A stretch of 64,000 nt of DNA. Source: Vulcanimicrobiota bacterium. GTDB taxonomy: Bacteria > Vulcanimicrobiota > Vulcanimicrobiia > Vulcanimicrobiales > Vulcanimicrobiaceae. The position numbers are program-made. Location: contig CAVRQT010000003.1 of NCBI GenBank assembly GCA_963723515.1, forward strand, positions 448,001 through 512,000, in the 5' to 3' direction. Numbering within the stretch: position 1 is the first letter of the stretch; every line of letters begins with the position of its first letter. Shown piece by piece: positions 51,001-57,000 of the stretch.

Positions 51001-54000
51001 GGGGCGGGGTCCGTCGTCGTAAAGGATGTGCCGGCGAATGCGACAGTGGTCGGCATTCCGGCGAGAGTCGTCTTGCAAGACGGACAACCCGTGCACGGCG
51101 TCTCAACTCGGCCGCAAGTCGACATGCCGGATCCCAATGCGCAGCTCATCGCCCAGCTGACGCGCCGTGTCGAAGATTTAGAGCGGCGCCTGGTTGAGCT
51201 GACGCAGATGAATGTCCCTAAAGCTATATAACACTCGCACGCGCACGGTCGAACCGTTCGAGCCGCTTTCGCCGCCGAGCGTTTCGCTGTATGTCTGCGG
51301 TCTGACGCCCAGTGCGCAAGCGCACGTCGGGCACGCGCGCACCTATCTCTTCTTCGATATCCTGCGCCGCTTTTTGGAGCACAAGGGCTACATGGTTCGC
51401 TACGTTCAGAACGTGACGGACATCGACGATCGCAGCATCGCCGAAGCGCTGGCAAAAGGTGAAGATTGGCGCGAAATCGTCGGCAAATACTACGCGTCGT
51501 TTAAAGCGTCGATGAAAAAGCTTGGTCTCTTGCCGCTGGATCCCGGATCCGAACCGCGCGCAACGGAATACGTACCGCAGATCATCGCGATGATCGCCGA
51601 GCTCGTAGAGCGCGGCTTTGCCTATACGGCAAAAGACGGCGTCTACTATCGCGTCGCGCGGTTTTCGCAGTACGGTAAACTGGCAAACCGTAATCTTGCG
51701 GAATTGGAGGCGGGCGCGCGCATCGAAGTCGATGAGTTCAAGGAAGATCCGCTGGACTTTGCGCTCTGGAAATTTGCAAAACCCGGCGAGCCATCTTGGG
51801 AATCGCCCTGGGGCGCTGGGCGGCCGGGTTGGCACATCGAGTGCTCGGCGATGGCGCGCGAGCTGCTCGGCGATCAATTCGATCTGCACGGCGGCGGCGC
51901 GGACTTGATCTTTCCGCATCACGAGAACGAAATCGCACAAAGCGAGCCGGTGATCCACAAGCATCCGATGGCAAACTTCTGGGTTCACGGCGGTCTGTTG
52001 CTTTTTGAAACGCGCAAGATGTCGAAATCGCTCGGAAACTTTGAACCGCTCTACCAATTGCTGGAGCGACACGATCCGCAGGCGGTCCGCCTCTTGTTTT
52101 TGCAGACCGGCTACAGTAAGGTGATGAATTTCCGCGAGGAGGCGATCGCCGCCGCGAATGTGACGCTAGAAACACTCCGGCAAAATTACCGGCTGCTGGA
52201 TGCCTTTGCGCGTTCGGACGACGAGAGCGGTTCGTGGCCGGTTTCTTTTAGCGTGCAAATGCAGCGCGGGGACTACCGTGAATTTGCTGAAGCGGTCGAA
52301 TCTGCGCTCGACGAAGATATGAACACCGCCTCCGCGTTGCGCGAAGGCTTGAGTTTTGCGGCGCTTGCGCCTGCCTTTGAGGGACATGCTGCCGCGGCGG
52401 CTGCGGCGCGGGATACATTGTCCTATTGGCTGACGATCTTAGGCTTAGCGCCCAACGAAACGTGGTTGCAAGAACGCGTCGCGCAATTGCCTGCCGACTT
52501 TCTCGACTGCTTGAAAAAACGGCTGGACGGCGCGGTATCGCTTTCGGCTGCCGCTTCGGCTGATGAGGCCATTCAGATCGTCATCGACATTCGCACGAAG
52601 GCGCGCGCGGAAAAGCGTTGGGCTGAATCGGATCGGTTGCGCGATGCGCTTGCGCGCTGCGGCGTCGCGCTCGAGGACACTCGAGAGGGAACCACGTGGA
52701 CCGTCGCCCGCTGAGGCGGCGGCAATGGAATCGAGCCTCGCTCGATGATGCGATTTACGGCGTGCACGCAGTTGAGGAAGCACTTGCCGCGGCGGATGCG
52801 CCGCTGAGCGTGCATCTCGGTGAAGACCGTAAGCGTGACCCGGCGGTTCGGCGGTTGCTGGAGCGGGCGTCGTCACGCAACGTCGCCGTGCGCTTCGAGG
52901 GGCCGGCGTACTTTGCGCAATTCCCATACAAAGCCCATCAGCGTGTCATCGCCTTCGGGCAGCCGTTTAACTACGCGACGCTTGATGATGTTGTCTATGG
53001 AAAACGCAGCGGCTCGCTGCTCGCGGTCGTTCTCGACCACATCACGGATCCGCACAACACCGGCGCGATTTTGCGAACCGCTGAAGCAGCCGGCGTCAAT
53101 GGGGTGATCCTCCCTGACCGGCGGGCTGCGGCCGTCAATCCGACGGTGCGCAAAGTCGCCGCCGGTGCTTCCGCACACCTGCCGATTGCGCGTGTCACGA
53201 ACGTGGCGCAAACGCTTCGCACGCTCAAGAAAAGCGGCGTGTGGATTCTGGGTGCCTATACGGGCGATGACGCCGCATTGCCCTATACGCAAGTGGACTG
53301 GAAGCGAGATCTTGTGCTGGTCATCGGCGCTGAAGATACGGGAATTTCACGCGTTGCGCGGAGCGAATGCGACGAGCTGGTTCACATCCCGATGCACGGC
53401 AAGGTCGCCTCGTTGAATGCCTCCGTGGCGGCCGCGATTTTGCTCTACGAAGCGGTCAGGCAGCGCAGCAGCTAAGACGAGGGATAGGCGCCTGGTCTCC
53501 AAGACAAGCAAGCTGTGGATAACTTGAAAAGGCAACGATTTTTCGCCTTGACGCGCCAGGGGCGTCCTCCTATACTAAACGACGATGTGCCGAGCTCGAC
53601 GGGCCCAGGCTTGCGATTTTCGTCACATCCTCCCCAAGAGGGCACGTTAAATGGCAATGACCCATCCCGTTTCGGATGGACTCGAGTATCACGAGCGGCC
53701 GGATGAGGACCTCGTTTCGACCGCTAAGGGCGGGGACAACCTGGCGATGGAGTTCCTGCTCAACAAGTACAAAAACTTCGTTCGCATCAAGGCCAAGAGC
53801 TATTTCCTGATCGGCGCCGATCGCGAGGACATCATTCAAGAAGGAATGATCGGCCTCTATAAAGCCGTGCGCGACTTCAAGGCCGATAAGCTTTCCAGTT
53901 TTCGCGCGTTTGCGGAGTTGTGCATCACGCGCCAGATCATCACCGCCATCAAAACGGCGACGCGCCAGAAGCACATTCCGCTCAACCAGTACGTATCGCT

Positions 54001-57000
54001 GAATAAGCCGATCTACGATGAGGACAGCGAGCGCACGCTTTTGGACGTGATGGCCTCGCAAAAAACCTCGGATCCCGAGGAACTCGTCATCAATCAGGAA
54101 GTCTCGCAAGATATCAAGGAGCGCATTCAAGAGAATCTCTCCGAGCTTGAATCGCAGGTGCTGCTTTCGTATCTCGAAGGCAAGAGCTACCAGGAGATGG
54201 CGCGCGACCTGGGCCGCCACGTCAAGTCGATCGACAACGCGCTGCAGCGCGTGAAGCGGAAAATCGAAAAGAATCTCTCGGAGATCGAACTACCGTAATC
54301 GAAGAGGCGCCAAACGGCGCCTCTTAAATAAGGCGGCTTCTTAACTGTATGCAGTTCACGACGAAGCGCTTAACGCTGCGTAAACTTCAGCCCGAAGATG
54401 CGCCGCTGCTCGTTTCGCTCTATGGCAACGCGCAAGTGCAGCAGACGCTGCCGCAACCGGAGCCGGTGACGGTCGAGCGCGAGCGAGAGATCATCCAACG
54501 GCAACAGGGCATTTGGAAAAAAGAAGGCTCAGGCATGTTCGCGGTCTTCGAAACAGCCGGCGGCGATTTTGTCGGCTGCTGCGGCCACCTTTTTTGGGAT
54601 ATCGACGGCAAACATGAAACGGAAGTCGCCTATGCGCTTCTTCCGAAACATTGGCGCAAAGGCTATGCCACCGAGGCGGCACGGGCGCTCAAAGAGGATG
54701 CATTTGAGCGGCTTGGCGTAAAGCGCGTGATTTCGCTGGTCATGCCGGGACAACGCGGGCTCCGGGAAAGTTGCGCAAAACAACGGCATGCACGTCGAAA
54801 AGCAGACGGTGCTGCTCGAAAAATACCACGTGAACGTTTGGGTGGTGGAGAAGCCGGCCGCGGTTTAGAACTCTAGCACTAACGCTATGGCAACGCTGAG
54901 TTTTTCGGACGGCCATCTCGACATTAAGTTATCTGTTCTCGACCGGCTGATCGGCTTTCATGGGTCGTTCCACATCCCGCTCGCGCATATCACGAATGCT
55001 TACGTGAGTGATTTTGAAGAGCTGGAATTGCAATTTCGCCTTTATGGCACGAATCTAGGATATCTCAAGTCTGTTGGCATTTTTGCGAATCCCGACGGCG
55101 TCATTTTCTGTGATTTGGCCGGCGAAGGCGACTGCTTAGTGATCGAAACGCGCGGCGAGCGTTTTCCACGGATCGCCGTCACGCCGAGCAAGGACGTTGA
55201 TGCGAATGCGCTCGCGCATGAAATCATGCGTCGAATCCCGGATAGCGGCCCCGAATAGCGATCGCACTAGCCGGTTAGAGGTCGTCTTCACCGAGTTCTG
55301 AGACGATCGTGCGATACAGTTCGTCTCGATCTTTGATCGGGTCAACGATGTAGATTTGTGCCGTGGCTCCGCGCCGCTGGGAATCGATAGCGACAGTTAC
55401 ATGGCGTCGTGCGCAGACGTCCATGCAGCTCGTGTTGATCGCGCGAATTTTTCCCCAGAGACCGTCTTGTTTGAGGCGCTCTTTCAGCCAGTCGCGCAGG
55501 TGAAAATCGCCGATCTCGGCAGCTTTATCCGGATCTTCTTCAGGAATGCGCTCTTTTGAGCAGCGCTCACAAACGAGCACCAGACCTGAGGCTCTCCACT
55601 TCGGATTGACGGTCTGCATTTGATTTGAAGTTTCGCTTTGGCCATCGTGTCACCCTGAGCTTGTCGAAGGGCAACGGCACCGGCACTTAAAGGGGCATGG
55701 GACAGCCATGGGGGCGATTACGATGGCCCTTCGACAAGCTCAGGGTGACACCGGGGTAATGCATCACGCGTCCAAACGTAAAAGAAGCGGCCCCTCTCGG
55801 GGCCGCTGTTTTCTTAGCCGACGGAGGGACTCGAACCCACGGCCTGAGGTTTACAAAACCCCTGCTCTACCAACTGAGCTACGTCGGCTTACATCAACGT
55901 TAGTTGTATTGACAACGTGTTCTGCACGAGTTCATCGGCCCTTTGCATCAACTCCGTTCTTGTTGGCTCTGCTAGGTGTCTTGCGGTTCGATGACTACGA
56001 GTCCGGTACTCACGCCCACGTCCTCGGTTCAGTGCTCGGAACGTGGGCGTCAGCGAATGACAATTCGGGCACAGTAGCGTGAGGTTGCTCGGGTGATTGT
56101 TGCGCCAATCGCCGTCGATGTGCTCGACCTCTACCGGCACGTTTCCGGTGACGGGATGTCGCTCAGCCCATCCACAGCGCGTACATTTTAAGCCCAGACG
56201 TCGCGCAAGATACTTTTTGATAAAGCCGTGAATGTGATGGGTCGGCGGATACAGGCCATGCTCGAGAAGCGCCGTGTTGATCTTCCGGCAATGCGCGCGG
56301 TGACATTCCCAAGAACAGAACTTGCCCGCATTCAACTTTATTTCCCCAACACCGCAATTCAAACAATAGCCGCGCCACTTTTTACAACCTTGGTATTCAT
56401 GCACCGATTCTAAAGTTGCCGTGTGCCAACACTATGGCATTCTGCGTGTCGGCTTTGAAGATTATTTTTATGCGCGTTTAATTGGCAGCGCTTTTCTTTT
56501 GGCTATCGTTCTGTTCAAATGAAAGCCCTATTGATCGGTTTCCGGTGGGTTATTCGCTGCGAGATCCGTTCCGTTTGTGATCGGCGCTCCAAGACGGCGA
56601 TATCATTTGGCACGGACAATCACGTGCGTTCAACCGCTCCGCCACGTCGGCCTAATTGCCCAGTAACTCTAGGCGCCGGCGACGACCATTTCAACTTAGC
56701 GGTGGAAGAAGATTGCGAGAATGATCGTGACCCAGGCGCTGAAGATCAGTCCCGAGCCCCAGCGCATTGCCGCAGTCAGCGTCGCTTCCAGTGATGAGAA
56801 TCGTCCTTCGATCCGTTGTTCAAATCCACCGAGGCGATGATCGATGCTCGTAAGACGGTCTCTGACTTGCTCGTATGCGCCTTCAAGGTGCGCCATACGG
56901 ACTTCAAATGGCTGAGCGGTCATAGATCAGTCCTTCTTCGATGCCATTATACTCTTCTTGTGCCCGCCTTTGATGCCGGTGTGACGGCGGCTCATTTTAC

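What a model noticed while it worked through the whole genome (the two positions that open the first line are those of the whole stretch)
53651..54298. Sporulation-type sigma H is universal in a non-sporulating diderm phylum
g01756 is a true orthologue of Bacillus sigma H (Spo0H), 66% identical and at the same cysS-rlmB-sigH...secE-nusG locus. It is present throughout Vulcanimicrobiota, which lack Spo0A, and is closer to the spore-formers' factor than the sigma H of lactobacilli or staphylococci are reported to be.
Evidence so far: 66% to B. subtilis SigH; three NCBIfam SigH equivalogs over cut-off. TIGR02859 matches in 35 of 35 phylum genomes from 14 families, 33 over the cut-off; among 14 controls only B. 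subtilis. In 5 family genomes it lies 3-5 kb from the ispF-cysE-cysS block. Spo0A_C absent in 5 of 5. Competence genes comEA, comEC, dprA, comF are present.
(Added by a program. Inside this text positions count along the whole contig: contig position 448,001 is position 1 of the stretch shown here. "Call 12" and the like, gene names such as g00115 and contig names such as C1 are that model's own, and its searches are not shown. The text may have been shortened before it was handed on; [...] marks where a part breaks off. The agent that wrote the report below was given it as the finding of a first reader that could run no searches.)

Follow-up and report, generated by a model that had tools for sequence, protein, structure and literature searches.

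The report
Spore sigma factor repurposed for housekeeping
This soil bacterium, which cannot make spores, carries a true copy of the Bacillus 'sporulation-start' transcription factor sigma H. In its class the factor appears to switch on over a hundred everyday genes through leaderless messages, and its promoter sequence has been largely purged from the rest of the genome.

Summary
Confirmed: 53651-54298(+) is a true SigH, 66.7% identical to B. subtilis, with near-identical promoter-reading segments and the same locus. It passes the TIGR02859 cut-off in 188 of 201 phylum genomes; Spo0A_C matches 1 of 121. It is not peculiar to this phylum: it also occurs in Armatimonadota (71/101), Actinomycetota (83/201) and a related phylum (56/61), and its tree fits vertical descent. 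The scan noted this before in Thermoleophilia.

A sigma-H-type promoter, AGG-N19(18-20)-GAA, sits 34-38 bases before the start codon of an estimated 134-201 genes lacking a Shine-Dalgarno site in two genomes; shifted controls give 0-5. These are probably leaderless mRNAs. Shared targets are housekeeping genes (thrS, proS, purE, folD, a gyrA/parC-family gene), not competence genes. The same dyad is the most avoided 3+3 dyad in both genomes (4-5-fold). It is depleted in 6 of 6 class members and in 0 of 16 SigH-negative genomes. SigH is the 6th most conserved of 1314 orthologues.

Best reading: an abundant second housekeeping sigma factor in this class. Attribution to SigH is inferred; no RNA data were available.

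The parts
53651..54298 (+). sigH, RNA polymerase sigma H (Spo0H orthologue), 215 aa
   Evidence: TIGR02859 339.1 bits over 294.8; 66.7% to B. subtilis; region 2.4-3 stretch FAELCITRQIITAIKTATRQKHIPLN and region 4.2 stretch RHVKSIDNALQRVKRK identical
53548..53576 (+). sigma-A-type promoter of sigH (TTGACG-17-TATACT)
   Evidence: a similar promoter is visible before sigH in most loci inspected from this phylum, the G204 phylum, Armatimonadota, deep Actinomycetota, B. subtilis and C. difficile; C. difficile sigH is mapped as P-SigA (PMC7438776)
53584..53629 (+). conserved 5' leader hairpin of sigH mRNA, family/order level, not in Rfam
   Evidence: 22 sequences: 91.5% of cells paired, 12 of 15 pairs change on both sides, 0 of 500 shuffles reach this, slid controls 31-50%; no Rfam match; not seen in family f3 or other classes. 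On its own the window copy folds no better than shuffles (z -0.67)
52696..53475 (+). rlmB, conserved upstream neighbour
   Evidence: TIGR00186 over cut-off; upstream of sigH in most loci of Bacillota, Actinomycetota, the G204 phylum and this phylum
47385..52714 (+). yacL-ispD-ispF-(GltX C-terminal piece)-cysE-cysS block, as in B. subtilis
61542..63636 (+). rpmG-tRNA-Trp-secE-nusG-rplK, the ancestral downstream block, here about 7 kb away
23784..23809 (+). predicted sigma-H-type promoter (degenerate, GGG-N19-GTAA) directly before dapD (23819-24640); an example target inside the window
   Evidence: posterior 0.89 here and 0.82 at the G097 orthologue; Pfam THDPS_N_2 on the orthologue; inferred, not mapped

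Best explanation
The gene is a vertically inherited sigma H. It is transcribed from a sigma-A promoter into an mRNA with a 5' hairpin. In the window's class it acts not as a sporulation or competence switch but as an abundant second housekeeping sigma factor. SigH-RNA polymerase binds (A)AGG(A) at about -35 and (C)GAA at about -13, 19 bases apart, and starts transcription at or 1-2 bases before the start codon. This gives leaderless mRNAs for roughly 130-270 genes (6-12% of genes), many of them core metabolic, tRNA-synthetase and DNA-maintenance genes. The -10 box no longer requires the final T of GAAT, so chance sites are common and have been purged inside genes on both strands. SHOWN: orthology, locus, conservation, the positional motif, its conservation between orthologues, genome-wide avoidance and its taxonomic range. 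INFERRED: that the motif is a promoter, that transcripts are leaderless, that SigH reads it, and that SigH is constitutive or essential.
For: (1) AGG peaks 35-37 bases before predicted starts in both genomes, only in genes without a Shine-Dalgarno site. AA follows 23 bases after the A of AGG in 33 of 113 and 42 of 147 such genes, against 6-7% background (p about 1e-14).
(2) A model trained on one genome estimates 134 of 1115 and 201 of 1000 genes in the other; shifted and reverse-complement controls give 0-5.
(3) 27 of 119 orthologue pairs carry the site in both genomes, odds ratio 9.5, p 3.6e-7.
(4) AGG-N19-GAA is the most avoided of all 3+3 dyads at spacers 14-24 in both genomes: 157 vs 717 and 243 vs 918. 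Inside genes, 42 vs about 300 sense and 32 vs about 263 antisense. Control dyads show no dip.
(5) The motif matches the published sigma H consensus AGGAATT-N14-CGAAT, which is AGG-19-GAA (PMC6849360), and AGGA-17/18-GAAT (PMC12456013). The C and G of CGAA emerged unseeded in G097.
(6) The DNA-reading segments are identical to B. subtilis.
(7) SigH ranks 6th of 1314 orthologues, 90% vs median 60%.
(8) N19/N22 ratio: 0.19-0.40 in 6 of 6 class genomes, 0.97-1.14 in 16 of 16 SigH-negative genomes; all 18 genomes under 0.9 lie in the two phyla with near-universal SigH.
(9) The best-conserved ECF is not found in 3 of 3 family-f3 genomes that still avoid the dyad.
Against: No transcript data, and start codons come from my own simple gene caller. 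SigH-bearing Armatimonadota (8 genomes, 0.92-1.07), Actinomycetota (12, 0.93-1.12), Bacillota (2, 0.96 and 1.04) and 6 of 14 other-class phylum members (0.91-0.98) show no avoidance, so SigH alone does not produce it. A SigB/F-type factor passes its cut-off in all 7 class genomes tested and in 4 moderately avoiding genomes, a partial correlation. Some hits have GGTAT or TATAAT-like -10 boxes and may belong to SigB or sigma A. The model fitted in G000 is blurrier than in G097, and an order-0 fit drifted. One of two 160-kb subsets of G097 gave only 1 hit against 12 for the other, so the small negative controls are weak. In the sigH-flanking loci of other phyla the motif was weak or absent.
Confidence: 0.68

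Rival explanations
1. SigH reads this motif, but as an ordinary transition- or stationary-phase factor with a large regulon, as in Sporomusa or Bacillus. The targets also have sigma-A promoters and SigH is dispensable for growth. Avoidance reflects cells that spend most of their life starved.
For: Sporomusa has 322 SigH start sites (16.1%), and SigH is still an alternative factor there (PMC12456013). Stress genes (Hsp33, PfpI, photolyase) are among the shared targets. sigH has a structured leader that could allow post-transcriptional control. The cultured species is slow-growing and oligotrophic (PMC9758169 passages).
Against: Shared targets include essential-type genes (ThrRS, ProRS, gyrase/topo IV subunit, FolD, PurE, DapD). 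A 7-8-fold purge inside genes, with no like purge for a sigma-A-type dyad, suggests frequent activity. Conservation is at the level of ribosomal proteins.
Confidence: 0.17
2. The motif is read by the SigB/F-type factor (or another sigma), and SigH has a small unrelated regulon.
For: TIGR02980 is over the cut-off in 7 of 7 class genomes and in G050, G062, G040 and G542, which avoid moderately. The published sigma B -35 box also begins AGG (AGGTTT; PMC6849360). The factor is 82% identical between the two genomes.
Against: G003 (0.67) and G054 (0.61), 96-97% complete, avoid the dyad without a match at 1e-50, and G008 has the factor without avoidance. Sigma B needs GGGTAT; here C is favoured and G disfavoured before GAA, and TTT after AGG is not enriched.
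Confidence: 0.08
3. SigH here is mainly a competence regulator, as in Lactobacillus, Staphylococcus and Listeria.
For: comEA-type, comEC and dprA domains are present; precedent in PMC3364868. G097 comEA scores 0.50.
Against: comEC 0.002 and comEA 0.01 in G000; dprA was not scored because it has a Shine-Dalgarno match. No competence gene is among the 70 top targets scanned.
Confidence: 0.03
4. The motif is not a promoter but an artefact of start calling, or a translation signal.
For: Starts were predicted with a home-made caller that rewards AG-rich words 4-16 bases upstream.
Against: The caller does not score -35. The peak has no 3-base echoes and is absent from Shine-Dalgarno genes. Avoidance is independent of gene calls and holds on both strands. 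The same pipeline recovers the known leaderless TANNNT peak at -12/-13 in Actinomycetota.
Confidence: 0.04

Closest known systems
Bacillus subtilis sigma H (SigH/Spo0H; TIGR02859)
   Same: 66.7% identity, identical region 2.4-3 and 4.2 stretches, same locus, sigma-A promoter in front of sigH, same AGG-19-GAA geometry.
   Different: No Spo0A; rae1 and mrnC not found. Predicted regulon of 130-270 genes against 48 quoted for B. subtilis (PMC12456013). No need for the T of GAAT, targets predicted leaderless, motif purged genome-wide. Class-fixed changes include S113Q, I73V and D127E.
Sporomusa sphaeroides KIAC expanded SigH regulon (PMC12456013)
   Same: SigH is the second-largest regulon (322 start sites, 16.1%) and reaches into core metabolism; AGGA-17/18-GAAT.
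   Different: It belongs to Bacillota and has Spo0A and the sporulation sigma factors; only seven leaderless mRNAs; strict GAAT. No genome-wide avoidance is mentioned in the passages read.
Clostridioides difficile SigH (PMC7438776)
   Same: 67% identity. Promoters AGG-18/19-GAA(T/A), with AGG 33-36 bases before the start site by my count on Table 3. Targets include division and translation genes.
   Different: About 41 direct targets, tied to sporulation.
SigH/ComX-like factors of non-sporulating Bacillota (PMC3364868)
   Same: Same locus; the host does not sporulate.
   Different: Those are 21-24% identical among themselves and to B. subtilis and activate competence; this one is slow-evolving and is not predicted at com genes.

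Membership tests
SigH (Spo0H) family | Score over curated equivalog cut-offs | tested here: met
   TIGR02859, NF006145, NF006147 and NF006148 all over cut-off
SigH (Spo0H) family | Position in the cysS-rlmB...rpmG-secE-nusG block | tested here: met
   rae1 and mrnC not found, 7-kb gap downstream
SigH (Spo0H) family | Conserved promoter-reading regions 2.4 and 4.2 | tested here: met
   identical stretches to B. subtilis; region names are from my own knowledge
SigH (Spo0H) family | Promoters of type AGG(A)-N-GAA(T) with 18-19 bases between AGG and GAA exist in the genome | tested here: met
   final T not required
SigH (Spo0H) family | SigH protein directs transcription from those promoters | not testable with these tools
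   needs ChIP or in vitro transcription; no RNA run was listed
Sporulation-initiation module (Spo0A + SigH) | Spo0A present | tested here: not met
   0 of 1 in this genome; 1 weak hit in 121
Sporulation-initiation module (Spo0A + SigH) | Forespore and mother-cell sigma factors F, E, G, K | tested here: not met
   13 sigma-70 region-2 matches; SigH plus 11 others scanned, none over a spore-sigma cut-off; RpoD, two SigB/F-type and ECF-like factors; the 13th has the same length and upstream DNA as one scanned; genome 88% complete
Competence-type SigH/ComX | Promoter before comEA, comEC and dprA | tested here: not met
   comEC 0.002 and comEA 0.01 in G000; comEA 0.50 in G097; dprA not scored
Primary or co-primary (essential) sigma factor | Essential and active in growth | not testable with these tools
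   indirect only: conservation rank 6 of 1314, essential-type targets, motif avoidance

The most novel reading that the evidence does not exclude
In the window's class (and partly in related classes) sigma H is an essential second primary sigma factor with a relaxed -10 box. It transcribes leaderless mRNAs for core genes such as ThrRS, ProRS and a gyrase/topo IV subunit, and it has left the strongest two-box sequence avoidance in the genome. Sigma H would then be an ancient growth-related factor shared by Bacillota, Actinomycetota, Armatimonadota and Vulcanimicrobiota, older than endospores. Dyad avoidance would be a culture-free way to read off the dominant sigma factor of uncultured lineages.
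Probability: 0.42. Interest if true: 0.86.

Novelty: new variant of a known kind. Interest (0 to 1): 0.72.

Why it matters
Sigma H is taught as a Bacillota transition-state and sporulation factor. Its presence at the same locus in four further phyla, with a tree that separates the phyla, moves its origin before sporulation and asks what it did first. In this abundant, barely cultured soil class, the data give a first promoter grammar: a sigma-H-type motif before about a tenth of genes, on predicted leaderless messages. This is directly testable in the one cultured species. It also predicts that foreign DNA rich in AGG-N19-GAA will be mis-transcribed in these hosts, which matters for building genetic tools.

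Tried and rejected
- Promoter search without positional anchoring, trimming the last 14 bases: no AGGA-17/18-GAAT enrichment (0 and 0 vs 1.4 expected). It missed the signal because the -10 box lies in the trimmed part and the dyad is depleted elsewhere.
- Exact-dyad footprinting between two genomes: only tRNA and chance hits, plus ftsE and katG candidates. ftsE later scored only 0.28/0.11 under the leaderless model because its site lies further upstream. A class-wide ftsE check was not completed.
- EM with an order-0 background drifted and was replaced by an order-2 background.
- Genome-wide patterns ending in ATG showed no peak.
- Strict AGGAW-N16-MGAAT against a +3 control: 16 vs 75 in 7 class genomes, but mixed elsewhere. 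Higher in G004 (107/51), G009 (191/123), G031 (259/191), G227 (40/17), G457 (42/13), G205 (43/22); also higher in SigH-negative G346 (32/18); lower in G014, G050, G062. Suggestive only.
- Conserved ECF as the reader of the motif: rejected.
- Recent transfer from Bacillota: not supported. Both quick trees split {this phylum, G204 phylum, Armatimonadota} from {Bacillota, Actinomycetota} at SH-aLRT 98-99. The careful tree and two of three clade tests did not finish, and the tree is unrooted.
- RNA runs: no RNA holder listed.
- ESM Atlas returned only SigH-like clusters. Cluster look-up named only 1 of 10 representatives. Structure and complex prediction were not run.
- Bulk upstream analysis in family f3, other classes and the G204 phylum could not be done, so for these only dyad counts exist.
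Full report
1. The gene. The ORF at 53651-54298(+) encodes 215 aa and passes four NCBIfam SigH-type cut-offs, TIGR02859 with 339.1 against 294.8. A named B. subtilis record gives 66.7% identity over 198 aa. Against B. subtilis, SigH is as conserved as NusG (65.7%), RplK (65.7%) and RpsL (66.0%), and far more than its neighbours CysS (37.7%) and RlmB (37.0%). The stretches that by my knowledge read the -10 and -35 boxes are identical. The order yacL-ispD-ispF-cysE-cysS-rlmB-sigH...rpmG-secE-nusG-rplK matches B. subtilis; rae1 and mrnC gave no hit in this 88%-complete genome. No tool named the window's phylum.

2. The phylum. 188 of 201 genomes pass the cut-off, against 1 of 14 controls. 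Spo0A_C matched 1 of 121, weakly, in a 5%-contaminated bin. Omp85 was found in 5 of 5. The cultured species is described as Gram-negative with an outer membrane and non-spore-forming (PMC9758169, passages). Between this genome and G097, SigH is the 6th most conserved of 1314 reciprocal best hits, 90.2% against a median of 60.4%.

3. Not unique to the phylum. A codon-restricted (high-GC) motif scan of species genomes stopped at 119 loci: by title 55 Actinomycetota, 53 Bacillota, 6 Armatimonadota, 3 Vulcanimicrobiota, 1 unnamed, and 1 'Patescibacteria' bin that has Spo0A. Surveys at E 1e-30 or better: the phylum of an Armatimonadia record 71 of 101, none over cut-off; the phylum of a Gaiellaceae record 83 of 201, 36 over cut-off; a further phylum whose records are titled Armatimonadota (I believe CSP1-3/Sysuimicrobiota, name recalled) 56 of 61, 53 over cut-off, with no Spo0A in 5 of 5 such records. 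Fusobacteriota hold distant relatives at 32-42%, and PDB 3mzy is named sigma-H (its organism is recalled as Fusobacterium). Phyla that did not appear in the scan were not surveyed. rlmB lies upstream in most loci, and a TTGAC-17-TATAAT-type promoter precedes sigH in most loci inspected, B. subtilis included. In a quick tree of 119 proteins each of six groups is one side of a branch. A 53-row tree, with 66 rows left out (long branches and near-duplicates), splits this phylum, the G204 phylum and Armatimonadota from Bacillota and Actinomycetota at 99 and does not reject one clade for this phylum (p-AU 0.55). Vertical descent is the simplest reading; the tree is unrooted, so an ancient transfer is not excluded. 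NCBI already names many of these proteins SigH. An earlier scan note reported SigH in Thermoleophilia (e1-3208838), which my survey agrees with. The tallies include genomes marked unpublished (G128, G178, G306, G323, G353, G478, G512, G568); no other claim rests on them.

4. The regulon. Unanchored searches failed. I called genes in this genome (2208) and in 2.4 of the 2.48 Mb of G097 (2244) with a simple caller and anchored on start codons. AGG peaks at -35 to -37 in both genomes (41, 35, 26 and 35, 48, 41, against about 17-18). The peak occurs only in genes without a Shine-Dalgarno word, and AA follows at +22 to +24 (33 of 113 and 42 of 147 at +23; background 6-7%). EM with an order-2 background gives (A/G)GG, spacer 19 (18-20), (C)GAA, in 170 of 1115 and 270 of 1000 genes. 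Applied crosswise with the model fixed, the estimates are 134 and 201, against 0-5 in shifted or reversed controls and 10-20 in Shine-Dalgarno genes. Of 119 orthologue pairs with matching starts, 27 carry the site in both genomes (odds ratio 9.5, p 3.6e-7). The geometry equals the published sigma H motif AGGAATT-N14-CGAAT (PMC6849360, passages) and AGGA-17/18-GAAT (PMC12456013, passages). In C. difficile, AGG lies 33-36 bases before mapped start sites (my count on part of Table 3 of PMC7438776), so here transcription should start at the start codon. The same pipeline finds the leaderless TANNNT peak at -12/-13 in Actinomycetota DNA. In SigH-negative controls the model found 1 of 111 genes (Nonomuraea, 350 kb) and 0 of 49 (Sinorhizobium, 150 kb); neither record appears among the SigH hits. 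These controls are small.

5. Targets. I scanned 70 of the 125 top G097 candidates with Pfam. The 31 shared with this genome include ThrRS- and ProRS-type synthetases, a gyrase/topoisomerase IV A subunit, PurE, FolD, DapD, transketolase, L31, RodZ, a lipoamide-dehydrogenase-type enzyme, a nucleoside phosphorylase, Hsp33, PfpI and photolyase. G097-only candidates include TsaD, peptide deformylase, a DNA polymerase III clamp-loader subunit, MutL, UvrD and LigD. Gene names are my reading of the Pfam hits. Some entries may be sigma A or SigB sites. comEC and comEA of this genome lack the site.

6. Avoidance. AGG-N19-GAA occurs 157 times in this genome against 717 at same-frame spacers, and 243 against 918 in G097; spacers 18 and 20 are also low. 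TGG..GAA and AGG..GAT show no dip, nor do the SigH-negative controls. De novo, it is the most avoided 3+3 dyad at spacers 14-24 in both genomes. Inside genes the loss is 7-fold sense and 8-fold antisense, while before start codons spacer 19 is the commonest (20 vs 2-7). Avoidance is strongest with A before and after AGG and C before GAA, and is indifferent to the base after GAA. Over 64 genomes the N19/N22 ratio is 0.19-0.40 in 6 of 6 class members; 0.61-0.98 in 14 other phylum members (8 under 0.9); 0.74-1.05 in 6 of the G204 phylum (4 under 0.9); 0.92-1.12 in 20 SigH-bearing Armatimonadota and Actinomycetota; 0.96 and 1.04 in 2 Bacillota; and 0.97-1.14 in 16 SigH-negative genomes. Kin are not independent. 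Avoidance therefore goes with the SigH-universal phyla but is not produced by SigH alone. The class's SigH carries fixed changes such as S113Q next to the -10-reading stretch; a link to the relaxed -10 box is a guess.

7. Which sigma. The genome has 13 sigma-70 region-2 matches: RpoD, SigH, two SigB/F-type, and the rest ECF-like. The best-conserved ECF is confined to two families and is not found in f3, which still avoids the dyad. The SigB/F-type factor correlates in part, but is not found in G003 and G054, which avoid, and its published -10 box does not fit. SigH fits by consensus, residues and range. This remains inference.

8. Control of sigH. A sigma-A-type promoter (53548-53576) is followed by a hairpin (53584-53629) with strong covariation in 22 family- and order-level sequences. 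It is not in Rfam and was not seen in f3 or other classes. Its role (5'-end protection or protein binding) is untested.

9. Literature. Passages of PMC3364868 and PMC3533761 treat sigma H as a Firmicutes family. Passages of PMC6878958 and bioRxiv 10.1101/2022.02.25.481979 held nothing on it. Ten searches (listings only, apart from the eight papers read in passages) showed no paper on SigH or its promoters in this phylum. The library lacks most subscription journals, and supplements such as COG tables were not seen. A large SigH regulon has a precedent in Sporomusa (322 sites, seven leaderless mRNAs in all).

10. Verdict. The gene itself is a known family member, already annotated, and shared with three more non-Bacillota phyla. 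What is new is a large, predicted-leaderless, housekeeping-rich sigma-H-type regulon and a genome-wide purge of its motif in one class. New variant of a known kind; interest 0.72.

Noticed in passing
window 49950-50504 (+): A 184-aa protein resembling only the C-terminal part of GltX sits where B. subtilis has gltX (between ispF and cysE); the full gltX lies at C2:808474. Possibly a relic or a free anticodon-binding domain.
   Followed up: no
window 53554-53570 and family loci L339-L367: The spacer of the sigH promoter often holds an inverted repeat (AGG/GGAGG...CCTCC) directly before the -10 box, a possible operator.
   Followed up: no
window 55889-56404 (-) and 55815-59732: An HNH/IscB-like ORF next to tRNA-Thr, plus a phosphoesterase and unknown ORFs between tRNA genes, separate sigH from rpmG; may be inserted DNA.
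   Followed up: no
window 55646-55750: REP-like palindromic repeat family, abundant in intergenic DNA of the genome. It overlaps the predicted promoter of 55275-55619, so that hit is doubtful.
   Followed up: partly
window 62136-62957 (+): NusG has about 100 extra N-terminal residues (273 aa).
   Followed up: no
window 49175-49477 (+): Small ORF with a weak EFG_C match between ispD and ispF.
   Followed up: no
L294-L313 and other genomes: Many Armatimonadota carry two or three SigH-like genes, often away from rlmB.
   Followed up: no
L176, L178, L182, L208, L227, L234, L238, L241, L250: Gaiellales-type sigH genes have a different conserved upstream region, with a conserved element ending in a short hairpin; may be the leader noted in the earlier Thermoleophilia finding.
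   Followed up: no
L013-L040: 28 viral contigs encode SigH-like proteins, one 82% identical to the alignment's first row; several lie at contig ends and may be host DNA.
   Followed up: no
G004, G009, G031, G227, G457, G205: The strict Bacillus-type motif AGGAW-N16-MGAAT is 1.4-3 times more common than a +3 control in these SigH-bearing genomes, hinting at large canonical regulons; one SigH-negative genome (G346) also shows it.
   Followed up: partly
G000:C2:221797-222337: A second dprA-like gene appears as two pieces in different frames.
   Followed up: no
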